A stretch of 64,000 nucleotides of DNA, taken from IMG/VR virus record IMGVR_UViG_3300035034_003552; one strand, given 5' to 3'. A model generated the notes under the pieces. It was not told where the DNA came from, did no database searches, and was given only the letters and a program-made list of their open reading frames with translations. The position numbers and the translations under genes are program-made. Source of the stretch: a virus. Its lineage: Duplodnaviria; Heunggongvirae; Uroviricota; Caudoviricetes. Position 1 is the first letter of the stretch. Every line of letters begins with the position of its first letter. Shown piece by piece: positions 4,153-58,836 of this stretch.

Positions 4153-4164
4153 GGAGGGTAGTAA

Positions 4165-6936
4165 ATGACTAATGCTTTTGATAAAGAAATAAAAGAAGGT
4201 AAATATAGCTTAAAAATTGGTACAGAAGTGCCAGAAGATGATATTAATATATGTTATTTAGATAGCCCTCCTTTAAAATCAACAGAAAATGTAAAGCTGT
4301 CAGATCTATCTGGAAGCATCACCGAAAATTACTGGGGCAATCAGAACCAAGAGAAAGACATGTATCCAGATTTAAACCATAAGTTAAATGACCTGGCCTT
4401 TATAAATGATACAGTTCCAACTGATGATATCTTGATCACTGACATATATTTAGACCAGGATAACTTAAATATACCACTTTATTATGATTATAACTTACTT
4501 TATAGATATAAAAATTACACATCTGATCCAAAAACAGGTATAGAAATTATAGACGAGAACGGAAGAGAGGTCAGCAGAGACAAGTACAAGATAGAACTAA
4601 CTAAAGTCGCTGAGGCTACTTATGATGTTAGGCTCTTATTGTCTTTTAACTCTGATGATGAACACACTTATAGCGTAGTTTATAATGCTATTGATAACAA
4701 CAACGTAACAATAAATTCGCATGAAGAGATACTGAATGCAGATATCATATTTAAAGAAGCAAGTATGCATGAAATAAGGGATCCAGATAATGAAAACAAA
4801 AAGATATATGCTAAAAAGTTAGACCTAAGAGCCAATGAGTATAACATCTATGTTCCTATAGATGCTGAAAAAAGAAACGATTCCAAGTTCAATAAAACTC
4901 TGGATGCAGACCTACCACTACCATTTCAATATGAAGTAGATATTAGTGGTTATAAGAGGTCAGAACATAAAGGTATTGCAATACATTTTGTTATTGATAA
5001 GTCGGGCTCTATGGGAGGCGAAGACCCGTGGACACCCATGAAAGACACGGTAAGATATTTTAGAGATGATCCTGATGTAGATTGTAAGTTTAATGTAACA
5101 TATTTTAGTAGCAGTGTTACAAATGTCTATAATAATTATGTTGGGGCAAATACGGTACTTGGTTGGAATCCTCCTGGAATGGGAGGAGGAACGGCATTCT
5201 TCGATGGCACTAAAAGTGCTGTAAGCAAGATGATAAGTAAAAATAATATAGATGAAGAAAATAGCAACACCCTAAAGGGTTGGAAAAAGGTAATCATAAC
5301 CCTTACTGATGGGAACGACAATGCAAGTGGATCGTCTCCACATAGCGTAAATAAAACTGCTCATGATAATTTAGATCTTACTATCTGGGGAATAGCCTTT
5401 GGTAGTGGGGCAGATGTGGGATCAGTAGAAGCCATATCAGATAAGATGGCCCAAAGCAGTAATCTGGGACAGATGTTTAAATCAATAAGAGAAGATGCAG
5501 CACCAAAACCATTCTCCGATAGGATAATGACAGGTTCTGGTCTAGTCTCAGAAAATAACAGCCCACTTAAGTTAAGACAGTTAATGCTTAACATTACGGA
5601 CGATATGATGGTAGAAACAGTAGAAATAACTATGACAGATACCGACGCGGATATTCATACATTTTTCTATAACGAAAATTCATCAAACAGGGTCGGAACT
5701 GTTTTTGATGGCGAGTCTAACAGCAAACTATATGCCAAAAATTTATTGACTTTTAATAAATCAAAAGATAAATGGGAGTTCAATACTGACAATAGGATAT
5801 ATGTATATGCTGAAACAAATAAGAAAACTAGAATATATACTAGAAAATACTCGGTTAAACTAAAAGAAAATAAAGGTATTTATGCAAGGATGCCAGATAT
5901 AGATAATATATTTAAAAACTGGTATTTAGAAGTACATGATGGCCGCTTCAGGACTGAAAATACTGAAGGTGATAAGACAACAGTTTATTCATATTTTCTA
6001 CCAGAATATCAGAGGCAGTTAGATGTTACAGATGGTAATAACGTAATAAGAATAACGGACGAGATACCTAAGGTGATCGACTCTAACACCTTAGAACTTG
6101 CTAACAGCCCTTTAGATATAGCACATGAAATTGAATCAGGTAAGAGGATTATCAAAAACATAGATGTAAAACAGGACGGTCAAGAAATAGAAATAGAAGA
6201 CTTTAATTCAGCCGGAGGCGTCCTCTTCTTAAGAGACAATATAGATCCTACTAAAGATATTAGAGTTAGTTATTCATACACTAACGAGTGGTATACGTAT
6301 AAAGGTTACTATGATAGTGATCATGATGAATTTGTATCACTAGACTTAAACCCATTTGATGGGCACAAATACAAAAAGAAGCTACCTAACAATACCTATG
6401 AGCTGGAAGATACAAGAAACTTATTCAATAAAGTTGTTTACTTATATATAAGACCAGCTGAGACAACAGAAAATAGGCCAGGCTATCCAAGAGATATAGT
6501 GCTAGGCTCTAAAAAAGACTACACATTGTTCCACACGATAGGAAGTCCGATAGAAGAATCAAACAACATGTATTCTGAACAGGTTAAATTACTGGCTAAA
6601 TGCTATCTTAAACCCAACGCTTCTCGTAATGATATTTCAATCATAGACGGTCGCCAAAGAGGTGGCGGGCTTAAAGAAGAAATAAATAAAGAAGTAATAG
6701 ATCAGATCAACCCAGAGGCGAACTTCTACTGGGATATTGGATATTTAGATGGTAAAGCTTATCCAGGTAACTCAGTAGTCATTGTAAAACTACCAAAGAA
6801 AATACTAAAAGAGTACGATGGCAAGTTTGAGTCTCAAGAAATAGACGAGATTGTAGATAAACACATAGCATACGGATCTTATTTTATAGTTGAGTATGTA
6901 GATGATGAAGATTTTATCAGTGAATATGATTTATAA
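4165..6936 (+). CDS. von Willebrand factor type A (vWA) domain protein with MIDAS motif; probable structural or adhesion protein.
   Basis: SD 'aaggaggg' 8 nt upstream. 'IAIHFVIDKSGSMGG' matches the DxSxS MIDAS signature, and 'VIITLTDGNDN' is a typical vWA strand; 923 aa. Confidence 0.7.
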   Translation: MTNAFDKEIKEGKYSLKIGTEVPEDDINICYLDSPPLKSTENVKLSDLSGSITENYWGNQNQEKDMYPDLNHKLNDLAFINDTVPTDDILITDIYLDQDNLNIPLYYDYNLLYRYKNYTSDPKTGIEIIDENGREVSRDKYKIELTKVAEATYDVRLLLSFNSDDEHTYSVVYNAIDNNNVTINSHEEILNADIIFKEASMHEIRDPDNENKKIYAKKLDLRANEYNIYVPIDAEKRNDSKFNKTLDADLPLPFQYEVDISGYKRSEHKGIAIHFVIDKSGSMGGEDPWTPMKDTVRYFRDDPDVDCKFNVTYFSSSVTNVYNNYVGANTVLGWNPPGMGGGTAFFDGTKSAVSKMISKNNIDEENSNTLKGWKKVIITLTDGNDNASGSSPHSVNKTAHDNLDLTIWGIAFGSGADVGSVEAISDKMAQSSNLGQMFKSIREDAAPKPFSDRIMTGSGLVSENNSPLKLRQLMLNITDDMMVETVEITMTDTDADIHTFFYNENSSNRVGTVFDGESNSKLYAKNLLTFNKSKDKWEFNTDNRIYVYAETNKKTRIYTRKYSVKLKENKGIYARMPDIDNIFKNWYLEVHDGRFRTENTEGDKTTVYSYFLPEYQRQLDVTDGNNVIRITDEIPKVIDSNTLELANSPLDIAHEIESGKRIIKNIDVKQDGQEIEIEDFNSAGGVLFLRDNIDPTKDIRVSYSYTNEWYTYKGYYDSDHDEFVSLDLNPFDGHKYKKKLPNNTYELEDTRNLFNKVVYLYIRPAETTENRPGYPRDIVLGSKKDYTLFHTIGSPIEESNNMYSEQVKLLAKCYLKPNASRNDISIIDGRQRGGGLKEEINKEVIDQINPEANFYWDIGYLDGKAYPGNSVVIVKLPKKILKEYDGKFESQEIDEIVDKHIAYGSYFIVEYVDDEDFISEYDL

Positions 6937-41516: not shown

Positions 41517-42200
41517 ATGGGTTCCAAAGTAGATTTAATGGTATATTTTGTTGAGAGTATGTTTGAAAGTAAACCTACTCAGGAGCAGAAAAACAATATC
41601 ATAAATACTATAAGCAACTTACTGCAAAATGGTTATTCAGATAGAGATATTAAATTGGTAATAGATAAACATATAAGGAAGTTTGGAGTAGAAAAAGATA
41701 TTACACAGGTTTTTGATGACAGGCACAAAAAGCCAACAGACGATGTCAACTTGATAGATCCTAACAAATTTTACTATCATTCGTCCCTGAGAATAGCACC
41801 AGGGCCACCTACAACGAAATACAATCCTGAAACGCGAGAGATAACTAGACGCTATGAAGACTACTTTTTAGAAATGAAAGCTAGTTATACGATAAAGGAT
41901 TTAGTTAAATATTATTGTGAGACTATGAAAATCAAAATGAATAAGCACACTATTAGTAGATACCATTCTGTATTTGAGAATTTACTTAGTTCTTACAGTT
42001 TAGACAGGATACTTTTTACGATAGATGCAGCGGCTGAAATAAGACAGTCAAACCATCTGAATCCATTGGTAAACCCATTTGGACTAACAGATTATATGCA
42101 TACAGGTGAAGAAAACTACAGTCTCAAGGTTAATTTAAGTAAACAGGAAGGTGTTGATGAAATTGTCTATCGCAAAAGACCCCCAATATTCGATGATTGA
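41517..42200 (+). CDS. Hypothetical protein in the replication module.
   Basis: SD 'ggaggag'; 227 aa. Confidence 0.6.
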   Translation: MGSKVDLMVYFVESMFESKPTQEQKNNIINTISNLLQNGYSDRDIKLVIDKHIRKFGVEKDITQVFDDRHKKPTDDVNLIDPNKFYYHSSLRIAPGPPTTKYNPETREITRRYEDYFLEMKASYTIKDLVKYYCETMKIKMNKHTISRYHSVFENLLSSYSLDRILFTIDAAAEIRQSNHLNPLVNPFGLTDYMHTGEENYSLKVNLSKQEGVDEIVYRKRPPIFDD

Positions 42201-43209
42201 GTTTGGATGTCATCTGCCAAATGGGTATTTCAAGCGAGGACAATATATAACATCTGATGACTTACTGGATATGCGCAAGAAGTACAGTAATACAGGAATT
42301 TATACTACAATTTATAGATATTCTAAAGAATTAGAAGAAGAAGACCCCATTTACGGACCATTTTATTTGGACTTCGATGCTGATATGTGGGGCGTCAGCG
42401 ATGATGTAGCAGAAAAGAACTTAAAAAAAGTACAGGAAGACTTAAAACTAGCAATAACTTATTTTGAAGTCATATACAACATACCGAGGGAATATGCCAG
42501 ATGTTACTATTCAGGTAAAAAGGGGGTACATCTGGTTTACCCTGCTGATCTATTCGGGATTAAGCCGAGGGAAGACCTTAATAGAATATTTAAGCTTATA
42601 AAAGATGATGTAAGTAAATATGTCAATCACGACACGATAGATCAAAGAATATATGATAATAAAAGATTATTCAGAGTGCCAAACTCAAGGCACCAGGATA
42701 CAGGACTTTATAAGATACCGGCCAGTCCAGATTTTTTAATAAACAGCTCACTCAAGGAGATAAGAGATAAGGCAAAGATGCCACAGGAGCTTAAAGTTAA
42801 AGAACCCAGGACATTAAGAAAGCCGGCAAAACAGTACAGAGCAGTAGTTGATAAATATGAATACCAGAAAAAAGAGCGGGAAGAAAAGATGAAAAGGTAC
42901 AAAGATAAGCCGTTAAAACACACACCTCCATGTATCGATAACCTATTAGAAGACGGAGCACGAAAGGGCCACCGCAACAATTCGATGGCTGCACTAACAA
43001 GTTTTCTCAAACAGACTGGGTTAACCGAAGAAGAGGTATTCATGAAAATAAAGAAGTGGGGCAAAGAGAAATGTGTTCCACCAATTAATGAAAACGAGAT
43101 AAAAGCGACAGTCCCTTCAGTTTATGGAAGTGAAAAGAACTACGGATGTGCAGCACTAAAGGAACTATCGACTTGTGAAAAGGATAAATGCAAGCTGGTA
43201 AAAGATTAA
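42157..43209 (+). CDS. Archaeo-eukaryotic-primase-type primase-polymerase (PrimPol) with a C-terminal PriCT-1 domain.
   Basis: AEP motifs 'FYLDFD' (DxD), 'GKKGVHLVYP' (sGxGxH), 'RLFRVPNSRHQDTG'. The C-terminal 'GARKGHRNNSMAALTSFLKQTGLTEEEVF' fits PriCT-1 (GxRNxxLxxxA). ATG 42157 after 'aggaaggtg'. Confidence 0.7.
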   Translation: MKLSIAKDPQYSMIEFGCHLPNGYFKRGQYITSDDLLDMRKKYSNTGIYTTIYRYSKELEEEDPIYGPFYLDFDADMWGVSDDVAEKNLKKVQEDLKLAITYFEVIYNIPREYARCYYSGKKGVHLVYPADLFGIKPREDLNRIFKLIKDDVSKYVNHDTIDQRIYDNKRLFRVPNSRHQDTGLYKIPASPDFLINSSLKEIRDKAKMPQELKVKEPRTLRKPAKQYRAVVDKYEYQKKEREEKMKRYKDKPLKHTPPCIDNLLEDGARKGHRNNSMAALTSFLKQTGLTEEEVFMKIKKWGKEKCVPPINENEIKATVPSVYGSEKNYGCAALKELSTCEKDKCKLVKD

Positions 43210-44096
43210 AAAGGATTTTTGTCTTCTATTTCACGCTCAAGTATAGCATCAGTAACATGAGTATAGATCTCTGTTGTAGAGAGATTAGCGTGGCCAAGAA
43301 GTTTCTGTAAGTTTCTGATGTCCATACCGGCTGAGTGATACAGCGTAGCAAAGGTATGACGCAGGCTATGGCTTGATATGTCAGCGTTAAGGCCCATATT
43401 CTTTACCAGCTTTTTTACTATCCAATGGACAGTATGTCGACTGATTCTATTTTTCCTTTTAGAAATGAAGACAGCATCAAGTCTAGTCTTAGGTCTTTTT
43501 TCTAAATACTCTTTAAGTAGCTTGGCAATGTCTTTATTGAGAAAGATGGTACGCTCTTTAGAGCCCTTACCTAAAACTCGAATTACATTCTCATTAAGAC
43601 TCAAATCATTCATATTAAGACCAGTCAGTTCACTTACTCGAAGACCCGCCATGCTCATCAGGCCTATCATGGCCTTGTTTCTCGTATGAAACTCGGTGAA
43701 GGTTTCGTCAACGCCGTCCAAAATAAGCAAAAGCTGTCTCCTAGTAAGGAAGAGAGGTAACTTTTTGCCTCTAGGGGTATGGTAATCAATTTTTTCCATC
43801 GGGTTTGAGCCAATAAGGTCCTCATTGTAGAGGTAAATGAAGAAAGAGTTTAAGGAAGATACTTTCCTGGCCACTGTATAAGGGGAGTTTTCCCTTAGAT
43901 CAGTACAGTGAGAAAGAAAAGATCTAATATCATCCACTTCGAAGTTATCAAGTTTCTTATCAATATGTGATAAAAGGAGCTCGATATCTCGTAAATATTC
44001 TTCAATAGTGGAAGCACTTATATTCTTTTCAACTCTTAACCAGTTCTGCCAGTTGTTAATGATTTTCTTAGCTTCTTTCATGGAAGATTCCTCCAA
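43206..44096 (-). CDS. Xer-like tyrosine recombinase / integrase (XerC/XerD family, 296 aa).
   Basis: 'ARKVSSLNSFFIYLYNEDLIGSNP', 'GLRVSELTGLNMND', 'VLGKGSKERTIFL', 'HSLRHTFATLYHSAGMDIRNLQKLLGHANLSTTEIYTHV' (R...K...HxxR...Y catalytic set). No large N-terminal arm-binding domain. Confidence 0.85.
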   Translation of the reverse strand: MEESSMKEAKKIINNWQNWLRVEKNISASTIEEYLRDIELLLSHIDKKLDNFEVDDIRSFLSHCTDLRENSPYTVARKVSSLNSFFIYLYNEDLIGSNPMEKIDYHTPRGKKLPLFLTRRQLLLILDGVDETFTEFHTRNKAMIGLMSMAGLRVSELTGLNMNDLSLNENVIRVLGKGSKERTIFLNKDIAKLLKEYLEKRPKTRLDAVFISKRKNRISRHTVHWIVKKLVKNMGLNADISSHSLRHTFATLYHSAGMDIRNLQKLLGHANLSTTEIYTHVTDAILEREIEDKNPF

Positions 44097-44128
44097 TTCA
44101 ACAAAATATAGATTTTGTTTAGTTAGAA

Positions 44129-44157
44129 CTCATATTATATATATTTATACGTAAACT
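44129..44157. promoter_or_regulatory. Candidate dif-like Xer recombination site next to the recombinase gene.
   Basis: '...catattatatatatttATACGTAAACT' in the recombinase 5' intergenic region. Its right half resembles the conserved XerD-arm of firmicute dif (ttATGTAAACT), and the centre is TA-rich. Confidence 0.3.
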
Positions 44158-44276
44158 ATTAAAATCCTTTTTTTTAAATCGGGAAATTACTATATTATAG
44201 TTAAACTTGTATTTAATCCCATTCTGCCAAGTTATCTCTGGATTTTGGGACAGAAAAGAAATTTAGGAGGCTTATT

Positions 44277-45389
44277 ATGGAAAATGAACAATCCACAGCA
44301 AATGCTCCAGAACGACATCCACTTGCTGATGATGAACAATTAGCTCCACCACCTGTTGTTGAGGCTAATGATGAAGATTTAGATAATAATTTACCACCAA
44401 TACAGTCAGTTCCACAAGATCAACTTGATGGAATGCCGGATTATATGAAAAATACTTCAATGCTTATCGAGGAGTTTGATAGATATTGTAAAGAAAATCC
44501 TGATGGTGGTTATGTTACAGGATATCAACAGTTAGATGATGCATTAATCGGATTCCAGCCTGGACTACATTTTGTTGCTGGTATGAGTAATGCAGGTAAA
44601 TCCTCTTTTCTACTAAATTTAGCATGGAGTGTCGGACAATCAAACGATAACGCCTATGCTTTATATATAACTTTAGATGATGGAACAAATGACTTACTAC
44701 CAAGAATAGTTGCTATGGAACAGCAAGTACCTATTAATACTGCAAGGTATCCTGGCCGGTATTCAGAGTTTGATAACTTAATGGATGCTCGCGAGGAAGG
44801 TGTGAGAATTCTCTATGATAATGTAGATAAATTTGGAATGATTAATAAAGATTACGGTTGGAACGCCGAGGAGCTTGAGGACTTAGTAAAAGAATTAAGA
44901 ATGCAATTAGCCGCAAGTGGGTCCGGTCGTGACTTATGTATCTTCATTGATAACTTTCACGACCTCTCCTCTGAAAAAATTAGTATTGGTACTGACCAGA
45001 ATGCACGATTCGAACAAGCTGGTGGTGCACTAAAAAACATTTCAGAAACCTATGATGTGCCTATTATAGCAACAGCTGAGTACAAAAAACTCGAAGGTAA
45101 ATCAAGGCCAGTTATCTCAGATATTAAACAGACTGGTAAAACAATCTATCAGGCCAAAACAGTTATGCTATGCTATAACGAAGTTGGAGTTAAAGATGAA
45201 ATGGCCAAGGTCTTTTTTGGTAGAGAGGAACGTGAAAGAAAGAGTCCAATCTTTGAAGTACACATAGCAAAAAATAAAAGTTCAGACATGAAATCCCGTC
45301 TCTTCTATGAGTTTTATGAAGAAATGGCCAGATTTGAAGAAGTACCAAGTCACAGATCTGGATACTACCTAAATATGCTAGGAGGTTGA
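44277..45389 (+). CDS. DnaB-C-terminal-family (RecA-fold) replicative helicase-like ATPase.
   Basis: SD 'aggagg'. 'TGYQQLDDALIGFQPGLHFVAGMSNAGKSSFLLNLA' (Walker A in DnaB-like context), 'LCIFIDNFHDL' (H2-like). Confidence 0.7.
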   Translation: MENEQSTANAPERHPLADDEQLAPPPVVEANDEDLDNNLPPIQSVPQDQLDGMPDYMKNTSMLIEEFDRYCKENPDGGYVTGYQQLDDALIGFQPGLHFVAGMSNAGKSSFLLNLAWSVGQSNDNAYALYITLDDGTNDLLPRIVAMEQQVPINTARYPGRYSEFDNLMDAREEGVRILYDNVDKFGMINKDYGWNAEELEDLVKELRMQLAASGSGRDLCIFIDNFHDLSSEKISIGTDQNARFEQAGGALKNISETYDVPIIATAEYKKLEGKSRPVISDIKQTGKTIYQAKTVMLCYNEVGVKDEMAKVFFGREERERKSPIFEVHIAKNKSSDMKSRLFYEFYEEMARFEEVPSHRSGYYLNMLGG

Positions 45390-47803: not shown

Positions 47804-47832
47804 AGAGGGGGTTCTCCCCTCTTCTCTTTATT
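47804..47832 (+). terminator. Intrinsic terminator.
   Basis: 'agagggggttctcccctct' hairpin followed by 'tctctttatt'. Confidence 0.6.
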
Positions 47833-51417: not shown

Positions 51418-52212
51418 GTGATGGATACAGAAGAACAATTAACAGCAGATGAAGTAGAAGAACTAGTCAAAGATTACAAAGACCCAGAAAGCGATACTGA
51501 AGCCGCAAAGAAATTACTCAATGCATTTTACCCATATCATCAAAAGTTTATTAAGATAATCAAAAGAAGTACCTGCAATATTTCCGATGAAGACAGCAGA
51601 GAATTTATAGGATTATTTATAGAAGATAAAGAAACTAAAGATCAGTTCATAAAAAACTGGAACACTGGCTGGGCTAAGAAAGTAGGGACCAGCCGGGCCT
51701 CTTTTCTGACAGAGCTGTGTAAAAACATCTCATACGAGGAAATAAGCCAGGAATGCAAGCTAATAACTTTAAAGCTGGCAGACAGGTATGAAGATTTAAA
51801 CAGAAGTTTTTTAGCTTATATCAGCTCTTCTTTTAAATATGAGCTCAAAAGAAGCCTTGATGAATTGACTCAGGATCCACTTGTTATGATGCAAAACTAC
51901 AATATCCCTTATGATTATCACGAGATAGACAGCATGGAGGGTAGTAGTTACATAGTCAATGAGAACATGCAGTATGATGAAAATGCATTCACAATGAAAT
52001 ACGAGGAACTGGGTCCAGACTGGATAAGAGGGATCACCTGTTCAAGAGAATTTAAAGATTTAGACTTGGTAGAAAGAAAGATTATCAAGTACTACTATCT
52101 CGACGATCTTACCGATGAAGCAATCGGAAATGAAATAGGTTATTCAAGACAGTGGGCACATGAAATGAGACAGAGAACGATAAAAAAACTTAAAGAAAAA
52201 ATAGTAATGTAA
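51418..52212 (+). CDS. Phage-encoded sigma-70-family sigma factor.
   Basis: SD 'aaggagg'. C-terminal region-4 HTH 'RKIIKYYYLDDLTDEAIGNEIGYSRQWAHEMRQRTIKKLKEKI'. Confidence 0.65.
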   Translation: MMDTEEQLTADEVEELVKDYKDPESDTEAAKKLLNAFYPYHQKFIKIIKRSTCNISDEDSREFIGLFIEDKETKDQFIKNWNTGWAKKVGTSRASFLTELCKNISYEEISQECKLITLKLADRYEDLNRSFLAYISSSFKYELKRSLDELTQDPLVMMQNYNIPYDYHEIDSMEGSSYIVNENMQYDENAFTMKYEELGPDWIRGITCSREFKDLDLVERKIIKYYYLDDLTDEAIGNEIGYSRQWAHEMRQRTIKKLKEKIVM

Positions 52213-52234: not shown

Positions 52235-52264
52235 TTGACAAGTGTAATACATATATGTTATACT
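52235..52264 (+). promoter_or_regulatory. Sigma-A-type promoter (TTGACA-18-TATACT) upstream of the second Cas4-like gene.
   Basis: 'ttgaca' 52235-52240; 'tatact' 52259-52264. Confidence 0.55.
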
Positions 52265-52294: not shown

Positions 52295-53005
52295 ATGGCA
52301 ACAGAACTCATAAAAGAATATATAGAAACTACTGATGGTGGATATGGTAAAGGTTACAGCTTAAAAGATCTTGTCAATTCACACCTTAGACAAAAACAAG
52401 TATTTTCAGAAAGAGATATGACAAAATTTCACCCCTCCTCCGTTGGTTATTGCGCAAGGAAAGTGGCAGCTGACATGATTGGTACATTTCCTAAAGAATT
52501 TATTGAGGACAGGATACTAAGAATATTCCAAAACGGCCACTATTCTCATGATAGAATACAGGATTGGCTTGAAGAAATGGGATTAATGGTTGAAGCAGAA
52601 AGAAAACTTATAGATGAAAGCTTAAACATAAGAGGTAACTGCGATGGTGTTATAGAGTTATATGATGAAGGTGAATTTATCATCGAAATCAAAACTATAA
52701 GTGCCAAAGGCTACAGGTACACTAAAAAGCCCAAGGACAAACACTACGCACAGATACAGCTTTACATGCATCTATCAGAGGTCCATAAAGGTATCCTCTT
52801 CTATGAATGCAAGGATGACCAGCGAATCAAAGAATTTAAGGTCGATTATGACCCAGAATTTGCACAGGAACTTATAGAAAAGATTAAGTTTATAAATAGT
52901 CATGTAGAGGAAGGTACTCTACCAGATAAACAATACGAGAAAAACAGCTTTGACTGCCGCTATTGTGAGTACAGAGAAACAATATGCTGGGCAGACGAAG
53001 ATTAA
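52295..53005 (+). CDS. Second Cas4-like PD-(D/E)XK nuclease with a Cys cluster.
   Basis: SD 'ggaaggaggg'. 'HPSSVGYCARKVA' (N-terminal Cys box), 'GNCDGVIELYDEGEFIIEIKT' (D...ExK), C-terminal 'CRYCEYRETICW'. Confidence 0.65.
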   Translation: MATELIKEYIETTDGGYGKGYSLKDLVNSHLRQKQVFSERDMTKFHPSSVGYCARKVAADMIGTFPKEFIEDRILRIFQNGHYSHDRIQDWLEEMGLMVEAERKLIDESLNIRGNCDGVIELYDEGEFIIEIKTISAKGYRYTKKPKDKHYAQIQLYMHLSEVHKGILFYECKDDQRIKEFKVDYDPEFAQELIEKIKFINSHVEEGTLPDKQYEKNSFDCRYCEYRETICWADED

Positions 53006-53370
53006 TTTAGTTAACCAAACTCCTTAAAATAAACCTCTAGAAATTGGTGACACAAAAGATTGATCAACTATTTAGCTTGTCAAATGTATATGTCACCTCT
53101 AAAAACTTGACCGGGTCCATAAAAGTGACTCCCTGTCGACAAGCACAGAGTCAGCCTGGTTTTTTGCCGAGAAGTTAATAAGACCCTTTAAAATCGAGGG
53201 CACTGTTCAGAGAACTATGAGGTTTCTAATCGGCTTAGTTTTTCCATGATAACAGGTGCGGATGTTCAACAGCCATTCGCACCACTCCTTAAATATAATA
53301 ATTTTCCTTTCTTCCGTCCCTGAAATATGGGGCGGTAATTTTATCCCAAAAATACACGAAAAGAGGTAAG

Positions 53371-53604
53371 ATGATGGCAAATAACAAAGATCAAACGTCT
53401 CTCAAGCTTATAGGTATGGCCACTAATATGTTTTCAGCAAATAAAGATGAAATAGAGGCATTTCTTTCAGCTTGGGATGAACATTTACATATATTTGAAG
53501 ATACAAAATCAGATAGAGGTAGAACTTTAAGTGACTTAATAGAAGATCTTAAAGAATATGCTGATGAAAAGTACAGTATAAGTTCTGTTATTAAAGAAGA
53601 GTAA
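53371..53604 (+). CDS. Hypothetical small protein.
   Basis: SD 'aagaggtaag'; 77 aa. Confidence 0.5.
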   Translation: MMANNKDQTSLKLIGMATNMFSANKDEIEAFLSAWDEHLHIFEDTKSDRGRTLSDLIEDLKEYADEKYSISSVIKEE

Positions 53605-53619
53605 AAAGGCGGTAGATAA

Positions 53620-53895
53620 ATGAATGTTAGACTCACGGTAAAAACAATATTCTCAGTATTAATAGCATACATGGTAGATATCTTCAATGAAGTCTATCCT
53701 ATTATAGGTAATTACATAGTTGGAGGACAGCTTGAGTCGTCAGATTTCAATTATTTACTTTTACAGTATTATAAAGAAGTGGATACTCTCTTCTATGCTC
53801 TTATAATTATGCTTTTAATCATGGTATGGTATCGAGAAATCAAGTATTTACATGACAACTATTGGGTGGCTGAAAAAGAAACAGCTACTGAATAA
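53620..53895 (+). CDS. Small two-TM membrane protein immediately upstream of the SPFH gene (possible NfeD-like partner).
   Basis: 'IFSVLIAYMVDIF' and 'LFYALIIMLLIMVWY' hydrophobic helices; 91 aa. Confidence 0.5.
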   Translation: MNVRLTVKTIFSVLIAYMVDIFNEVYPIIGNYIVGGQLESSDFNYLLLQYYKEVDTLFYALIIMLLIMVWYREIKYLHDNYWVAEKETATE

Positions 53896-53929
53896 CAAAT
53901 AATATATACAAAAGGGGTTGCATAAGTTA

Positions 53930-54973
53930 ATGAAGAAAAAGATTTTATTACTATCGATCATTTTATTAGTCGTACTATTCGCTACAACAGGTTGTGTCAT
54001 CAAGGAATACAAGGAACCATTGATTGTTGAGGGTGGCTCTAATGAAACACTTATTCTAATTCCAATGGTGGGGAACAATAAGGACACTCAGGAGAAATTA
54101 GATTCTCTTTCCTATCTTGAGGAAAACAAAGTAGCTTCAAAAAGAGTTGAATTAACTCAAGGCTGGCTTAAGAAAGGACGCCTACCTAACTCTGGGACAT
54201 ATATCCCCGACCAAAAAGCTATTAGAGTAGATAGAACTCCAGTAAACTTGGAGTGGACTGCAGAGAAAAATAGAGGCAGTAGCTCAAGCGATCAGGGTAT
54301 CGTCGGAGAAAGTAAGAACTCAATCAGTTTTGCGGTTGACTGGTATGTAACAGCAACAGTACTTGAAGAAAACGCACATGAATTCCTATATTGGTACGGT
54401 GTTAATAATGAAACTGCCAGAACAAAAGGCGGCAGAACCTACAGTGTAAAATCAAGACAGCTACATGATGTTGTTAATACTGAAGTAAGAAGGATGGTTG
54501 CCAAGCTCTTTACTGAAAAAACAGGACGGCTATCACTCGATGAAATAATGTCTGGTAAAGATAGGCTATCACAGGAAATTGAAAGCGAAGTTAAAGAACA
54601 TTTCGAGAAAAAAGGTATCACCATCACCGCTTCTGGATGGACTGGTGACATCACATATTTTGATGATGCAGTACAGGAATCAATTAACCAAGAATTTAAG
54701 GCTGACAGAAAGGCAAAGGCACAGGCTAAGGTAAATCAAATGAACTTAGATATGGCCAAAAACGAGGTTGAAGTGGCCAAGCAAGAAAGACTAGCCGCCG
54801 AGGAAAGACAGAAAGCCTGGGACATCATCGCACAGCGCAGAGAATTAGATATCTTAGAAAATTATGTAGATGTTCTTAATGAAAAATGGGATGGTAAGTA
54901 TCCTTCTACTCTCTTAAAGAATGGTGGAGGTTCTAATCAACCATTTATGATGGAACTACCAATGCCCGAATAA
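53930..54973 (+). CDS. SPFH/band-7 (stomatin/prohibitin/flotillin-like) lipoprotein.
   Basis: 'MKKKILLLSIILLVVLFATTGC' is a signal peptide with a lipobox-like TTGC. The mid-region 'RRMVAKLFTEKTGRLSLDEIMSGKDRLSQEIESEVKEHFEKKGITITASGWTGDITYFDDAVQESI', followed by the Ala/Glu/Lys coiled coil 'KAKAQAKVNQMNLDMAKNEVEVAKQERLAAEERQKA', is typical of SPFH domains. TTG at 53918 is an alternative start. Confidence 0.6.
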   Translation: MKKKILLLSIILLVVLFATTGCVIKEYKEPLIVEGGSNETLILIPMVGNNKDTQEKLDSLSYLEENKVASKRVELTQGWLKKGRLPNSGTYIPDQKAIRVDRTPVNLEWTAEKNRGSSSSDQGIVGESKNSISFAVDWYVTATVLEENAHEFLYWYGVNNETARTKGGRTYSVKSRQLHDVVNTEVRRMVAKLFTEKTGRLSLDEIMSGKDRLSQEIESEVKEHFEKKGITITASGWTGDITYFDDAVQESINQEFKADRKAKAQAKVNQMNLDMAKNEVEVAKQERLAAEERQKAWDIIAQRRELDILENYVDVLNEKWDGKYPSTLLKNGGGSNQPFMMELPMPE

Positions 54974-54986
54974 ATAGGAGGAATAT

Positions 54987-55244
54987 ATGGACTTTTCTAA
55001 AGCACTAAGTAAAGTGAAAGAAGGAAAGAAAATCGCAAGAAAAGGCTGGAACGGTAATGGTATGTATATTTATTTTGTCTCTGAAGATAGTTATGAGTCA
55101 AAAACTAAACATGCGAAGAAAGAATTTGGTGATGTAACACCTTATCTGCCATACCTTGCCCTAAAAACTGTTAATGACAAAGTAGTCCCATGGACCGTGA
55201 GTCAGACGGATATCTTATCTGATGATTGGACCGTGTTAGAATAA
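54987..55244 (+). CDS. DUF2829-like small protein (family of the Thoeris anti-defence protein Tad2).
   Basis: SD 'aggagg'. 'ALSKVKEGKKIARKGWNGNGMYIYF' and 'VVPWTVSQTDILSDDWTVLE' match the DUF2829 hallmarks (A(L/I)xxGKK(V/I)xRKGWNGKGM...W.PSQ.D(L/I)LA.DWE) from memory; 85 aa. Confidence 0.5.
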   Translation: MDFSKALSKVKEGKKIARKGWNGNGMYIYFVSEDSYESKTKHAKKEFGDVTPYLPYLALKTVNDKVVPWTVSQTDILSDDWTVLE

Positions 55245-55298
55245 ATAAACTAAATAGGGAGGCTTAACTGCCTCTCTTCTTTTTATTGGAGTGAGAAT

Positions 55299-56237: not shown

Positions 56238-58628
56238 ATGCCAATAAACTATATAACTAAAAGAGATAAAGAGATAGTAGAATTTGACAGAGAAAAAATA
56301 GAGATTGCAGTAAATAATGCAGCCGTAGATGGTAATTTCGAGGAGAATCCCTTAGAACTGGGTATAAAGGTCGCAGATATAGTAGTACGAAAACTGCTTC
56401 CTGCTTATGAGGACAATACCAAAAACGATACTCCAACTGTGGAGCTTGTTCAAGATCTTATTGAGGAAACATTGATGGAACTAGGAAACTTCAAGATTGC
56501 TAAAAAGTATATTATATATAGAAGTAAAAGAGAAAGTGTTAGAATCAAGAAAAATAAAGAAGATGATAAAAACTCTATCCTTTCAAATGAATTCCTGAGC
56601 AAGTATAAACACCAGCCTAACCCTTTCCCAACAGAGCTGGGGGAATTTATTTATTATAGAACCTATTCGCGATGGTTGGAAGTAGAACAGCGCCGCGAGT
56701 ATTGGTGGGAAACAGTTAAAAGAGCTGTAGAATACAACTGCTCACTTGCACCAACAACTGAAGAAGAAGCTGAGGAATTATATGATAATGTATATAACTT
56801 AAGAAACTTTGTTGCCGGTCGTACATTATGGACAGCGAGTACAGAATCATCTAAAAAATACGGAATGAGTAACTACAATTGTTCCTTTACAGTTATAGAT
56901 AGCTTTAAGGCATACCAGGACATTTTCTACTTGCTTATGATAGGCAGCGGAACTGGATTTCGCGTTCTTCCTCGTGATGTTGATCATCTGCCTAAGATCA
57001 GAACTAATGTGGAAATTATTCATAAATATTATGACCCTATTGAGAAGGACGAGAGGCGTGAATATACCGACTTCGACTTTGATGGTAGAGTTGCTACTAT
57101 TAATGTTGGAGACTCAAAAGAGGGCTGGATTCAATCCCTAGAGTATTACTTTAAGTTCTTAACCGAACATTCTTATAGACCAGTAAGTAAAATCATCTTT
57201 AATTATGACTCCGTACGCCCGAAAGGCGAGAAACTTAAGACATTTGGTGGTACAGCTTCTGGCCATGGAAGTCTAAAGCGTATGTTTACTAAGGTTGATA
57301 AACTATTACACAGCAAAAGCGATAGAGATACAGACGATCTGGATAGAGTTAAGCTAAAGCCTATTGACGCAATGGATATTTCAAACATTATTGCTGAAAA
57401 TGTAGTTAGTGGTGGAGTAAGACGCTCCTCTCAAATTTGCCTCTTTTCTGCTGATGATAAAGAGATTGCCCAGGCTAAAAGCAAGTTATATGAGCAGGTA
57501 AATGGAGAATGGGTAATAGATGAAGAAATAGCACACCGTCAAATGAGTAATAACAGTATCTTTTACGAAGAAAAGCCAACCAGAGAACAACTTAAATGGC
57601 ATGTTGAGCAAATGCGTTTTAGCGGAGAACCGGGATTCATTAATGCAGAAGAAGGAAGGCGCCGCAGGGAAGATTTTAAAGGTGTAAATCCCTGTGCTGA
57701 GATTCTGTTAGATTCTAAGGGTGTATGTAACTTAACCTCCCTTAATGTAATGAGCTTTGTAGAAGACGGTGAGCTTGATAGAGAAGCCATGATGAACTCA
57801 CAAAGATTATCTGCTAGAGCCGGTTATAGGATGGCCACAATAGAGTTTGAACTGCCAGAATGGGGTTACATCAATGACAGAGATAGACTAATTGGGCTAT
57901 CAGTTACTGGGTGGCAGGATATGGTGAATGCTGCTGACTTAGATAAAGATGAAGAAGCACAACTATTAAGACAGCTAAAAAATGCTGGCCAGGATGCTGC
58001 AGAAGAAATAGCGGCAGAATTAGATGGTAACGAACCTAAGCTAGTCACTACCGTTAAGCCAGAAGGCACTCAGACACAAATGCCTACGGTATCAAGCGGA
58101 CTCCATTATAACCATAGTGCATATTATTTAAGAAGAGTTAGAATTTCTGCTTCTGATCCGCTGGCCCGGGTGTGTGAAGAATTGGATTATCCAGTACACC
58201 CTGAAACCGGTCAGGATCCTGACAATCCAGAAACACTAGTCATAGAATTCCCAGTACGCGCTCCAGAAGGCAAAGTCAAGGATGACGTTGGAGCCCTAGA
58301 ACAGTTAGAAACCTACAAGATGTTTATGAAAAACTATGTTGATCATAATGCTTCGATCACTGTTCATGTCAAGGATGACGAATGGGAAGATGTAGAAGAA
58401 TGGTTATGGGAAAACTGGGAATATACAGTTGGTATCTCCTTTCTTTCTTATAATGACAGCTTCTATGAACTAATGCCTTATGAGGAAATTACCGAAGAAG
58501 AATACTTAGATAGAGCAGAAAAAATGAAAGAGTTTAAGCCCGGTCTAGTTGCTAAGTATGAAACTGAACAGCTTGAGAGAGAGGTTGAGGGTAGTTCCTG
58601 TGAGACTGGAGCCTGTCCGATCAGATAA
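56238..58628 (+). CDS. nrdJ: Ribonucleotide reductase, class II (adenosylcobalamin-dependent, NrdJ-type), with an N-terminal ATP-cone-like region.
   Basis: SD 'aagggag'. N-terminal 'ITKRDKEIVEFDREKIEIAVNNAAVDG' (ATP-cone-like), 'NPCAEILLDSKGVCNLTSLNV' (class II active-site Cys/Asn motif NPCxEIxL...CNLxSxN), C-terminal 'SSCETGACPI' redox Cys pair; 796 aa. Confidence 0.8.
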   Translation: MPINYITKRDKEIVEFDREKIEIAVNNAAVDGNFEENPLELGIKVADIVVRKLLPAYEDNTKNDTPTVELVQDLIEETLMELGNFKIAKKYIIYRSKRESVRIKKNKEDDKNSILSNEFLSKYKHQPNPFPTELGEFIYYRTYSRWLEVEQRREYWWETVKRAVEYNCSLAPTTEEEAEELYDNVYNLRNFVAGRTLWTASTESSKKYGMSNYNCSFTVIDSFKAYQDIFYLLMIGSGTGFRVLPRDVDHLPKIRTNVEIIHKYYDPIEKDERREYTDFDFDGRVATINVGDSKEGWIQSLEYYFKFLTEHSYRPVSKIIFNYDSVRPKGEKLKTFGGTASGHGSLKRMFTKVDKLLHSKSDRDTDDLDRVKLKPIDAMDISNIIAENVVSGGVRRSSQICLFSADDKEIAQAKSKLYEQVNGEWVIDEEIAHRQMSNNSIFYEEKPTREQLKWHVEQMRFSGEPGFINAEEGRRRREDFKGVNPCAEILLDSKGVCNLTSLNVMSFVEDGELDREAMMNSQRLSARAGYRMATIEFELPEWGYINDRDRLIGLSVTGWQDMVNAADLDKDEEAQLLRQLKNAGQDAAEEIAAELDGNEPKLVTTVKPEGTQTQMPTVSSGLHYNHSAYYLRRVRISASDPLARVCEELDYPVHPETGQDPDNPETLVIEFPVRAPEGKVKDDVGALEQLETYKMFMKNYVDHNASITVHVKDDEWEDVEEWLWENWEYTVGISFLSYNDSFYELMPYEEITEEEYLDRAEKMKEFKPGLVAKYETEQLEREVEGSSCETGACPIR

Positions 58629-58801
58629 TGTTTAAACTAACAGATAATAAAGAGCTCCTTGAAGCACTAAGAAAGGGCTTTAAAAACAAAGGTGGGTATT
58701 GTCCCTGTAAATTAGAAAAGACAGATGATAATATCTGCCCCTGTACTGAGTTTATAGAGACCGGTAAATGTCACTGCGGATTATTTGTAGAAGTTGAATA
58801 A
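58628..58801 (+). CDS. Ferredoxin-thioredoxin-reductase-catalytic-subunit-like miniprotein (57 aa, CPC/CPC/CHC), translationally coupled to nrdJ.
   Basis: ATG overlaps the nrdJ stop (TAATG). 'MFKLTDNKELLEALRKGFKNKGGYCPCKLEKTDDNICPCTEFIETGKCHCGLFVEVE' carries the CPC-x-CPC-x-CHCxLF arrangement characteristic of FTR catalytic chains. Not in the ORF track (<60 aa). Confidence 0.5.
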   Translation: MFKLTDNKELLEALRKGFKNKGGYCPCKLEKTDDNICPCTEFIETGKCHCGLFVEVE

Positions 58802-58807
58802 TAACTT

Positions 58808-58836
58808 AGACCCCTCAAAAGGGGTCTTTTTTTTTG
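58808..58836 (+). terminator. Strong rho-independent terminator ending the plus-strand module.
   Basis: 'agacccctcaaaaggggtct' followed by T9. Confidence 0.8.

What the first reader, a model, noticed from the sequence alone, without database searches (positions are those of the whole stretch)
53006..53370. ORF-free 365-bp island with locally elevated GC content between early genes: candidate origin or structured RNA
In an otherwise tightly packed, AT-rich genome this stretch has no ORF of 60 aa or more that makes sense on either strand. It is visibly richer in G/C. It contains a palindrome TGTCGACA, the inverted pairs GTCAC...GTGAC and GACTC...GAGTC, repeated TTGACA-like hexamers (ttgtca, ttgacc, tgtcgaca), and a T6 tract after a weak hairpin. 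The only ORF over it is an antisense artefact (53391..53687).
Basis: seen in the sequence. Interest (0 to 1): 0.5.

Follow-up and report, generated by a model that had tools for sequence, protein, structure and literature searches.

The report
Structured RNA downstream of phage nuclease
The gene-free gap is not a replication origin; it carries a roughly 200-base RNA fold, kept by compensating base changes in related uncultured phages and matching no catalogued RNA family, that probably controls how far transcription runs into the next genes, though its function is unproven.

Summary
The 365-bp gap (53006-53370) is truly ORF-free. Its GC rise is trivial: 0.386 against 0.363, and a quarter of same-size windows are as high. 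It has no origin features: no iterons, no tandem repeats, no AT-rich block, no skew inflection.

It does hold a conserved structured RNA on the + strand, element A (about 53031-53234). A has a hairpin P1, a long irregular hairpin P2 and a three-way domain P3. A starts about 25 nt after the stop codon of a Cas4-like nuclease gene that has its own strong sigma-70-type promoter.

Related metagenomic phage contigs (L008, L125-L136) carry the same element. Its identity is 76%, against 52% at third codon positions. There are 8 compensatory pair changes, and the G:U pairs work only on the + strand.

A matches no Rfam family, and cultured relatives lack it. A second conserved module lies downstream: a terminator-like hairpin (53314-53335) abutting the next gene's ribosome-binding site.

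Best reading: a cis-acting RNA in the nuclease transcript that governs read-through into the downstream accessory/RNR genes, in the manner of put or conAn2. This is inferred, not shown. It rests on only three lineages. Interest is moderate.

The parts
52235..52264 (+). Sigma-70-type promoter in front of the nuclease gene (TTGACA, 18 nt, TATACT, with TG). It is the presumed start of the transcript that contains the RNA element.
   Evidence: Best promoter-like site in 44-59 kb, 11/12 matches plus an extended -10. The same position in relative L125 has a perfect 12/12 site.
52295..53005 (+). Cas4-like PD-(D/E)XK nuclease gene. Element A always follows its stop codon.
   Evidence: Pfam PDDEXK_1 at 5.6e-8 with a weak Cas_Cas4 hit; PHROG 1706/1990 at 6e-40 and 3e-32.
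53031..53037 (+). Conserved leader AAACCUC. It is the candidate 5' strand of a long-range pseudoknot (P0) with AGGUUU at 53220-53225.
   Evidence: Read from the sequences. The complementarity is kept in L008 (AAACCU/GGGUUU) and L125 (AAAUCCU/GGGUUU). There is no double change, so this is only a candidate.
53046..53097 (+). P1 hairpin: GGUGACA (53046-52) pairs with UGUCACC (53091-97). The loop carries the invariant UUAGCUU.
   Evidence: Relatives have GGAGUACC/GGUACUCC at the same place, giving 4 pairs changed on both sides. One variant (L127) has A to G, giving G:U.
53098..53109 (+). Single-stranded joiner containing the invariant AAAAACUU.
   Evidence: Invariant in all copies.
53110..53160 (+). 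P2, a long irregular hairpin. P2a is ACCGGGU/GCCUGGU, followed by a 9-nt internal loop. P2b is UGACU/AGUCA. P2c is CUGU/ACAG, with a loop ending in the invariant AAGC that runs on into the invariant 3' strand ACA (AAGCACA).
   Evidence: All cells of P2a and P2b pair in 3-4 sequences. P2b has one A:U to G:C double change. P2a has 2-3 G:U pairs, and one becomes G:C in L125.
53160..53165 (+). U6 tract directly after P2 (UAUUUU in relatives). It may be a terminator tail or a single-stranded linker.
   Evidence: The terminator scan did not flag it because the P2 loop is too long for the scan's rules.
53166..53234 (+). P3 domain. The closing helix is GCCGA (53166-70) with UCGGC (53230-34). It encloses P3a, CCCUU/GAGGG (53184-88 with 53196-200), and P3b, CA..GUUC-AGA-GAAC..UG (53201-53219).
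   Evidence: P3, P3a and P3b each carry one compensatory double change relative to L008/L125.
53255..53292 (+). Module B: a 10-bp hairpin, GGUGCGGAUG/CAUUCGCACC, with one G:U. The 11-mer CCACUCCUUAA overlaps the last two bases of its 3' arm and runs on after it; it resembles an anti-Shine-Dalgarno sequence.
   Evidence: Inverted repeat I8. The 11-mer is identical in L125 (11215-11225), where it likewise overlaps the end of an unrelated hairpin, GGGGAGG/CCUCCCC.
53312..53347 (+). Module C: an intrinsic-terminator-like hairpin, CCGUCCC/GGGGCGG (53314-53335), with the tail UAAUUUUAUCCC.
   Evidence: Top + strand terminator-like site; 5 sites were found against 0.6 expected. 51 of 58 aligned columns are identical to L125 11358-11413 although the downstream ORFs differ. 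Window U:G is C:G in relatives. Unique in the window.
53362..53373 (+). Ribosome-binding site (AGAGG) and start codon of the 77-aa gene, about 25 nt after the terminator-like hairpin.
   Evidence: There is no room and no match for a promoter between hairpin and RBS.

Best explanation
The gap encodes no protein and is not an origin. It is the non-coding 3' extension of the nuclease transcript, which starts at the sigma-70-type promoter at 52235.

Its first ~200 nt (53031-53234, element A) fold into a conserved three-part RNA:
- P1, a hairpin with an invariant UUAGCUU loop;
- P2, a long irregular hairpin followed by a U tract;
- P3, a three-way domain, possibly tied to the 5' leader by a pseudoknot.

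Downstream come a hairpin plus an anti-SD-like 11-mer (module B). Then comes a conserved terminator-like hairpin (module C) that sits against the next gene's ribosome-binding site.

Most likely mechanism (inferred): A acts in cis on the transcribing complex or the nascent transcript. It sets how much transcription passes the terminator-like hairpins at 53314 and 55256. Transcription that passes them reaches the downstream block: the 77-aa gene, a membrane protein, SPFH, Tad2 and the class II RNR, up to the strong terminator at 58808. This is a processive-antitermination or attenuation element in the manner of HK022 put or pLS20 conAn2.

Shown: the region is non-coding; it is conserved; the helices covary; the strand is +; the element is single-copy and linked to the nuclease gene; and it belongs to no Rfam family.
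Inferred: co-transcription from the upstream promoter, terminator function, and the antitermination role.

My estimates: about 0.75 that A is a selected structured RNA, about 0.6 that it is part of the nuclease transcript, and about 0.3 for the read-through-control role specifically.
For: Non-coding: no ORF of 60 aa or more, and indels between homologues break all frames. A 65-aa ORF in L125 is stopped at codon 19 in L008.

Conservation: A is 76% identical to L008 over aligned columns, against 52% at third codon positions and 56% at fourfold sites of the adjacent gene. Among close variants, A has 1.4 variable columns per 100 nt. The nuclease CDS has 1.7 and the rest of the gap 18.6.

Covariation: window against L008 gives 8 pairs changed on both sides, 1 wobble change and 1 broken pair out of 38. 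Substitutions placed at random would break about 15. On the P2-P3 alignment of 3 sequences, 97.5% of cells pair, against 24-41% when partners are slid. RNAalifold on 4 sequences recovers P1 (for the three relatives; the window's P1 arms are misaligned there), P2a-c, P3, P3a and P3b by itself.

Strand: P2a has 2-3 G:U pairs. L127 P1 has A to G, giving G:U. The window terminator stem has U:G where relatives have C:G. On the other strand all of these would be A:C mismatches.

Context: the only strong promoter in 44-59 kb is just upstream of the nuclease gene. The + strand terminator-like hairpins at 53314 and 55256 abut the next RBS, with no promoter-like site after them. The layout promoter, first gene, structured RNA, terminators, further genes matches lambda/HK022 nut/put (my knowledge) and pLS20 conAn2, a 383-bp intergenic RNA after gene 28 (PMC8191782).

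Single copy: the covariance model finds one copy per locus, always after the nuclease gene.
Against: Only three lineages (four distinct sequences) are available, and two of them are close.

I drew the structure with both sequences in view. The less biased test used the window-only MFE with a sequence-only alignment and is not significant: 20 broken pairs against 21.8 expected.

Element A alone is not unusually stable (z = -1.0).

Nothing directly shows transcription, termination or antitermination. The phage has its own sigma-like factor, so unrecognised promoters could make read-through unnecessary.

Intercistronic hairpins next to RBSs are common in this genome and may only tune mRNA stability.

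Nuclease homologues of equal similarity (L001) and the L002 group lack A, so A is dispensable for the gene it follows.

There is no similarity to conAn1, conAn2 or any Rfam antitermination RNA.
Confidence: 0.4

Rival explanations
1. Element A is a discrete, stable small RNA acting in trans. It would be either a 3'-UTR-derived sRNA processed from the nuclease mRNA, or P1-P2 released by termination at the U tract after P2. It would regulate host or phage targets, or titrate a protein.
For: P2 is followed by U6 or UAUUUU, like the 3' end of a Rho-independent sRNA. Invariant single-stranded motifs (UUAGCUU, AAAAACUU, AAGCACA) could be seed or binding sites. A is inherited as a block with the nuclease gene while the rest of the gap turns over.
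Against: No promoter-like site lies between the nuclease stop and P1. P2 is a poor canonical terminator, with a 9-11-nt internal loop and G:U pairs at the stem base. No target complementarity was identified.
Confidence: 0.2
2. A is the sensor of a riboswitch-like or protein-binding attenuator. A ligand, tRNA or protein bound to A would decide whether the terminator at 53314 forms.
For: In the window, a structured domain is followed within 80 nt by a hairpin and a terminator-like hairpin just before an RBS, which is the classic Bacillota leader layout. In the window, the 5' arm of the 53255 hairpin could alternatively pair with the 5' arm of the terminator (read from the sequence).
Against: In the L125-type relatives, A and the terminator-like hairpin are about 415 nt apart, separated by hypervariable hairpins. 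An aptamer and its expression platform are not coupled that way. No riboswitch or T-box model matches, even at E up to 10. The downstream genes suggest no ligand.
Confidence: 0.1
3. The hairpins are structural punctuation without a specific regulatory role. They would be mRNA-stabilising 3' structures, RNase processing sites and leftover terminators from gene-cassette turnover in a plastic region.
For: Hairpins directly before RBSs occur elsewhere in the genome, at 47804 and 55256. The middle of the homologous gap in relatives is a hypervariable string of GGAGG/CCUCC hairpins with indels and replaced segments. Gene order after the gap differs between lineages.
Against: This fits modules B and C and the variable middle, but not element A. 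A has a multi-helix architecture, invariant loops and junctions, conservation equal to the coding gene, and compensatory changes in five helices.
Confidence: 0.15
4. The region is a DNA-level element: a replication origin, a packaging site or a protein-binding operator.
For: It lies in the replication/recombination gene block, with primase, DnaB, RuvC and nucleases upstream. It contains inverted repeats.
Against: No iterons or tandem repeats. No AT-rich stretch, since GC is above average. No skew inflection. The helices keep pairing through sequence change, whereas a protein site would keep its sequence. They use G:U pairs that are mismatches in DNA and on the other strand. The element is absent from close relatives that share the same replication genes (L001, L002).
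Confidence: 0.03
5. A is an RNA partner of the adjacent Cas4-like nuclease, acting as a guide, scaffold or inhibitor.
For: A is always immediately 3' of this nuclease gene and co-varies in rate with it. This resembles the placement of omega RNAs after TnpB/IscB genes (my knowledge).
Against: Equally similar nucleases of the same length lack A (L001 233 aa, 76% identical). No extra domain is present. No variable guide-like segment is visible.
Confidence: 0.04

Closest known systems
HK022 put RNA (putL/putR) and lambda nut sites: cis-acting antitermination RNAs of phage early operons
   Same: Same position in the operon: strong early promoter, first gene, structured RNA, terminator(s), further genes. 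The RNA acts on the complex that made it (PMC9378689, and my knowledge of lambda PR-cro-nutR-tR1). Here the series is promoter 52235, nuclease, A, terminator-like hairpins at 53314 and 55256, then genes up to 58808.
   Different: put is two stem-loops of about 70 nt, and nut is boxA plus the boxB hairpin. A is about 200 nt with three domains and shares no evident sequence with them. The host is a Bacillota-type organism, not E. coli. No antitermination has been shown here.
conAn2 of pLS20 and related Gram-positive conjugative plasmids: a large intergenic antitermination RNA
   Same: conAn2 is a 383-bp ORF-free gap directly after the first gene of a long operon in a low-GC Gram-positive mobile element. 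It holds a large RNA with a GC-rich patch and stem-loops and works only in cis to read through internal terminators (PMC8191782). Size, placement and genome type match closely.
   Different: There is no ConAn1 homologue in the window or its relatives (tblastn). conAn2 shows no similarity by nhmmer, and the covariance model of A gives only chance-level scores, none significant, across pLS20 1-6500. The upstream gene here is a nuclease, not a processivity factor.
3'-UTR-derived and terminator-embedded bacterial or phage small RNAs
   Same: A structured RNA begins just after a stop codon, is co-transcribed with the gene, and has a hairpin followed by a U tract.
   Different: A is larger and multi-domain. 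No processing site or discrete end is known.
Promoter-early stem-loop (PeSL) cassettes of T4-type phages (recalled from memory: Arbiol et al. 2010)
   Same: Hairpin-containing intergenic modules flank variable accessory genes and mark recombination joints. Module C is 88% identical between lineages while the ORF after it differs.
   Different: No promoter is recognisable in modules B or C. This concerns the 3' modules only, not element A. I did not check the paper.

Membership tests
Any Rfam 15 family (riboswitches, T-box, ribozymes, GOLLD/ROOL/HEARO, EAR, pRNA, introns, and others) | Covariance-model score at or above the family's gathering threshold | tested here: not met
   No match at gathering thresholds in the 64-kb window. 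At E up to 10, only chance-level hits appear on the gap, none on the L008 copy, and only chance-level hits on the 690-nt L125 gap.
tRNA / tmRNA | ARAGORN detection | tested here: not met
   0 genes in the window.
Replication origin | Iterons or repeated initiator boxes | tested here: not met
   Only short two-copy direct repeats of 8-22 nt. No tandem repeats at score 30 or above.
Replication origin | AT-rich unwinding element and a GC-skew inflection | tested here: not met
   GC is 0.386 against a mean of 0.363. Cumulative skew rises monotonically through 53 kb and turns only at about 58.7 kb, where the coding strand switches.
conAn bipartite antitermination system | ConAn1 protein gene immediately upstream of the RNA | tested here: not met
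   tblastn of pLS20 p28 against the window, L125, L131, L132, L001 and L002 gave only one chance hit at E 1.4. The upstream gene is a PD-(D/E)XK nuclease.
conAn bipartite antitermination system | Similarity of the RNA to conAn2 | tested here: not met
   nhmmer of conAn2 against both gaps gave no hit at E up to 10. Model R1 with filters off gave only chance-level scores across pLS20 1-6500 (best 9.3 bits, E 0.67, outside conAn2), none of them significant. The authors describe the family as poorly conserved, so this is weak evidence.
conAn / put-type cis antitermination RNA (function class) | Lies between an operon promoter and internal intrinsic terminators, with no promoters after them | tested here: met
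   Promoter at 52235. Terminator-like hairpins at 53314 and 55256 directly precede RBSs. The strong terminator is at 58808. No comparable promoter-like site lies in between. These are consensus scans only.
conAn / put-type cis antitermination RNA (function class) | Suppresses termination in cis | not testable with these tools
   This needs a reporter assay or in vitro transcription.
Riboswitch or attenuator leader | Sensor domain directly coupled to its expression platform | tested here: not met
   A and the terminator-like hairpin are about 80 nt apart in the window but about 415 nt apart in L125-type relatives. The intervening sequence is hypervariable.
Intrinsic terminator (module C only) | GC-rich hairpin followed by a U-rich tail | tested here: met
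   7-bp stem with 6 G-C pairs, 8-nt loop, tail TAATTTTATC. It is the top-ranked + strand site and is conserved in relatives. Function was not tested.
Independent sRNA gene | Own promoter upstream of the RNA | tested here: inconclusive
   No sigma-70-like site lies between the stop codon and P1 in the window or L125. The phage encodes its own sigma-like protein, whose promoters are unknown.
Protein-coding gene or pseudogene | Conserved reading frame, or similarity to a protein of related loci | tested here: not met
   Frames are broken by indels. tblastn of all peptides of 40 aa or more from the window and related loci against the gaps gives only the gaps' own frames and very weak chance hits.

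The most novel reading that the evidence does not exclude
Element A is the founding example of a new class of large cis-acting antitermination RNA in big Bacillota phages. It would be functionally parallel to HK022 put and plasmid conAn2 but unrelated to both in sequence and fold, and possibly pseudoknotted. It would switch a block of accessory, anti-defence (Tad2) and nucleotide-metabolism genes from off to on behind intrinsic terminators. An even less likely variant is that it is an RNA cofactor of the adjacent Cas4-like nuclease.
Probability: 0.2. Interest if true: 0.65.

Novelty: new variant of a known kind. Interest (0 to 1): 0.4.

Why it matters
If element A really controls read-through, it would add an RNA-based timing switch to large phages of Gram-positive anaerobes. 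Little is known about the transcription programme of that group, and only a handful of RNA-only antitermination devices are known anywhere.

It sits just upstream of an anti-Thoeris (Tad2-like) gene and a ribonucleotide reductase. It could therefore decide when counter-defence and nucleotide supply are switched on.

Even without a known function, it is a clean candidate for a new RNA family, supported by covariation. The caveat is that it is so far seen in only three lineages of uncultured phages, so its reach may be narrow.

Tried and rejected
- Rfam at gathering and at permissive thresholds on three versions of the gap: nothing. A weak CRISPR-DR58 hit (E 7.6), together with the 22-nt direct repeat D1, was considered as a phage mini-array or repeat mimic. 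I rejected it because the repeat is 77% identical and not conserved in relatives.
- A resemblance of the L008 P1 arm to the T-box sequence (my recollection) was rejected. There is no T-box model hit, the position is wrong, and it is not kept in the window.
- ACTCCTTAAA as a recurring promoter motif: 7 matches against 7.9 expected.
- Searches for more homologues by DNA pattern gave only chance hits in coding regions. These covered viral contigs, JGI metagenomes and GTDB genomes, checked with nhmmer. My metagenome pattern required CCTGG, whereas L125-type copies have CCCGG, so it missed them.
- Relatives of the 77-aa downstream gene have no gap upstream. Homologues were finally reached through 90%-cluster members of the nuclease.
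- Phage GenBank records show no DNA match. The closest nucleases are about 32% identical (jumbo Bacillus phages, Moorella phage MTATph1). MTATph1 shares the RuvC-sigma-Cas4 order but has no gap.
- Thermodynamic stability does not discriminate strand or element.
- The test using the window-only MFE and a MAFFT alignment is not significant.
- A pseudogene remnant was rejected. conAn membership was rejected.

Full report
**Setting.** The window is a large tailed-phage genome segment at about 36% GC. It carries virion structural genes, then a replication/recombination block, all on the + strand up to 58.6 kb. The finding lies between two genes. Upstream is a Cas4-like PD-(D/E)XK nuclease gene (52295-53005; Pfam PDDEXK_1, PHROG 1706/1990). 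Downstream is a 77-aa ORF of unknown function (53371-53604).
- Further upstream are RuvC and a sigma-70 region-4 protein.
- Further downstream are a small membrane protein, an SPFH lipoprotein, a Tad2-like protein, three small ORFs, a class II ribonucleotide reductase and a 57-aa FeThRed_B-like ORF.
- A strong bidirectional terminator at 58808 ends the series.
- The nearest cultured phages are jumbo Bacillus phages and Moorella phage MTATph1, at about 32% nuclease identity.

**The observation.**
- The gap is truly ORF-free. The longest ORFs are 57 aa (-) and 44 aa (+).
- The GC claim is weak. GC is 0.386 against 0.363, and 25% of same-size windows are as high.
- The listed palindromes exist. 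Only GACTC/GAGTC turns out to be a supported helix.
- TTGACA-like hexamers are at chance level.
- No origin features are present: no iterons, no tandem repeats, no AT-rich block and no skew inflection.
- There is no Rfam family and no tRNA.

**Finding relatives.**
- Direct DNA searches failed against phage GenBank records. DNA-pattern scans of IMG/VR, JGI metagenomes and GTDB genomes also failed.
- Protein searches with the nuclease gave three clusters.
- One short contig, L008, carried a diverged copy of the first about 240 nt of the gap.
- Members of the same 90% cluster led to twelve longer contigs, L125-L136. In these the nuclease gene is followed by a 691-724-nt ORF-free gap, then a 68-aa membrane ORF, SPFH and Tad2.
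- Two other nuclease lineages lack the element. L001 is 76% identical and has a promoter plus an AbrB-like gene instead. The L002 group has an HD gene abutting the nuclease gene.
- Homologues of the 77-aa gene elsewhere have no gap upstream.
- MTATph1 has the same RuvC-sigma-Cas4 order but no gap.
- The element is therefore lineage-restricted and tied to the 3' side of this nuclease gene.

**Anatomy.** Aligning all gaps shows three conserved modules.
- Module A (window about 53031-53234) consists of:
  - a leader, AAACCUC;
  - P1 (53046-52 with 53091-97), whose loop carries the invariant UUAGCUU;
  - a joiner, AAAAACUU;
  - P2 (53110-53160), made of P2a, a 9-11-nt internal loop, P2b and P2c, with the invariant AAGCACA spanning the end of the P2c loop and its 3' strand;
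  - a U tract;
  - P3 (53166-70 with 53230-34), which encloses P3a and P3b.
- Module B (53255-53292) is a 10-bp hairpin whose end overlaps CCACUCCUUAA. The same 11-mer likewise overlaps the end of an unrelated hairpin in L125.
- Module C (53312-53367) is a terminator-like hairpin plus tail plus RBS. 51 of 58 columns are identical to L125 although the ORFs that follow are different genes.
- The window's gap looks like the relatives' gap with the hypervariable middle, a string of GGAGG/CCUCC hairpins, missing.

**Evidence that A is a selected RNA structure.**
- Conservation. A is 76% identical to L008 on aligned columns. Third codon positions of the adjacent gene are 52% identical and fourfold sites 56%. 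Among close L125-type variants, A has 1.4 variable columns per 100 nt, like the nuclease CDS (1.7). The remainder of the gap has 18.6.
- Covariation, two sequences. In a manual window/L008 alignment of 41 pairs, 38 are comparable. Of these, 8 changed on both sides and stayed paired: 4 in P1 and one each in P2b, P3, P3a and P3b. One changed to a wobble, one broke, and one is a mismatch in the window that is paired in L008. Scattering the same substitutions at random breaks about 15 pairs. No shuffle out of 20,000 did as well, and this also holds without P1.
- Covariation, more sequences. On the MAFFT alignment of P2-P3 for three sequences, 97.5% of cells pair, against 24-41% with slid partners. 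RNAalifold on four sequences recovers every helix by itself; it recovers P1 for the three relatives, because the window's P1 arms are misaligned in that alignment.
- Independent folds. Separate MFE folds of the window and L008 both contain P1, P2a/b and the P3b hairpin.
- Strand. P2a has two or three G:U pairs, and one becomes G:C in L125. The L127 variant of P1 is A to G, giving G:U. The window's module C stem has U:G where relatives have C:G. All of these would be A:C mismatches on the other strand or in a DNA cruciform.

**Caveats.** I drew the structure with both sequences in view. A less biased test, using the window-only MFE and a sequence-only alignment, is not significant because that MFE has many spurious pairs and P1 is misaligned. 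A alone is not unusually stable (z = -1.0). Only three lineages exist.

**A candidate pseudoknot.** P0 would pair 53031-36 (AAACCU) with 53220-25 (AGGUUU). The complementarity is kept in all lineages, with one wobble change, but there is no double change.

**Transcription context.** The best promoter-like site in 44-59 kb is at 52235-52264, just upstream of the nuclease gene (TTGACA, 18 nt, TATACT with TG). L125 has a perfect consensus site at the same place. There is no promoter-like site inside the gap in either genome. Module C and a second terminator-like hairpin at 55256 both sit directly against the next RBS. Expression of the downstream block from recognisable promoters therefore requires read-through.

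**Mechanism.** The layout is promoter, first gene, structured RNA, terminators, further genes. That is the layout of lambda nutR and HK022 putR (my knowledge; PMC9378689). It also matches conAn2 of pLS20, a 383-bp intergenic RNA after the first operon gene of a Gram-positive mobile element, which suppresses internal terminators only in cis (PMC8191782). I therefore favour a cis-acting role in controlling read-through, at about 0.3 for that specific role. I estimate about 0.75 that A is a functional structured RNA of some kind.

It is not a conAn member. There is no ConAn1 homologue, and neither nhmmer nor the covariance model shows any significant similarity to conAn2.

The rivals are:
- a trans-acting sRNA, either 3'-UTR-derived or ending at the P2 U tract;
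- a ligand- or protein-sensing attenuator, disfavoured because A and the terminator are about 415 nt apart in relatives;
- mere stability or processing hairpins, which fits modules B and C but not A;
- an RNA partner of the nuclease, disfavoured because equally similar nucleases lack A;
- an origin, for which no supporting feature was found.

**Novelty and verdict.** A matches no Rfam 15 family and no cultured-phage sequence. It is single-copy per genome. It is best described as a new, narrowly distributed structured RNA motif of uncultured large Bacillota-type phages. It is placed like known cis-acting antitermination RNAs but is unrelated to them. Interest is moderate (0.4): the structure is well supported for so few sequences, but the function is inferred from layout alone.

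Noticed in passing
window 58628-58801 (+): A 57-aa Cys-rich ORF (CPC...CPC...CHC) directly after the class II ribonucleotide reductase gene. It hits Pfam FeThRed_B, the ferredoxin-thioredoxin reductase catalytic chain, at E 5e-5 and 23.6 bits (cut-off 22). It may be a phage-encoded redox partner for the RNR.
   Followed up: partly
window 54987-55244 (+) and 53918-54973 (+): A Tad2-like (anti-Thoeris) gene (Pfam E 5e-26) and an SPFH/Band 7 lipoprotein gene sit just downstream of the finding. The same pair follows the homologous gap in relatives L125-L136.
   Followed up: partly
window 44097-44276: An AT-rich divergent gap between a tyrosine integrase gene (43206-44096, - strand) and a DnaB-like helicase gene (44277-45389), next to a primase gene (42151-43209). 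It is a more plausible origin or regulatory region than the finding.
   Followed up: no
window 47804-47822, 55256-55277 and 53314-53335 (+): Terminator-like hairpins lie directly against the next gene's ribosome-binding site, with no room for a promoter. This suggests operons punctuated by leaky or regulated terminators.
   Followed up: partly
L113 973-5259; L125 14075-16642; L132 8114-10492: In relatives the ribonucleotide reductase gene is interrupted by an HNH/NUMOD4 endonuclease ORF and carries a LAGLIDADG domain, indicating an intron and an intein. The window's RNR (56238-58628) is uninterrupted.
   Followed up: no
window 51418-52212 (+): A phage-encoded sigma-70 region-4 protein lies between RuvC and the nuclease gene. 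The same RuvC, regulator, Cas4 order occurs in Moorella phage MTATph1 (L140). Its promoters are unknown and could hide in the gaps.
   Followed up: no
L125 10944-11357 (and L126, L127 variants): The middle of the relatives' 690-nt gap is a hypervariable chain of perfect GGAGG/CCUCC-type hairpins (fold z = -6.5). A hairpin plus (C/T)TGACATA motif recurs, and L127 has a 30-nt hairpin insertion with a replaced segment. This looks like turnover of hairpin cassettes.
   Followed up: partly
window 53031-53036 with 53220-53225: A candidate long-range pseudoknot (AAACCU with AGGUUU) would link the leader to the inside of the P3 domain. The complementarity is kept in L008 and L125, with one wobble change and a one-base bulge.
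   Followed up: partly
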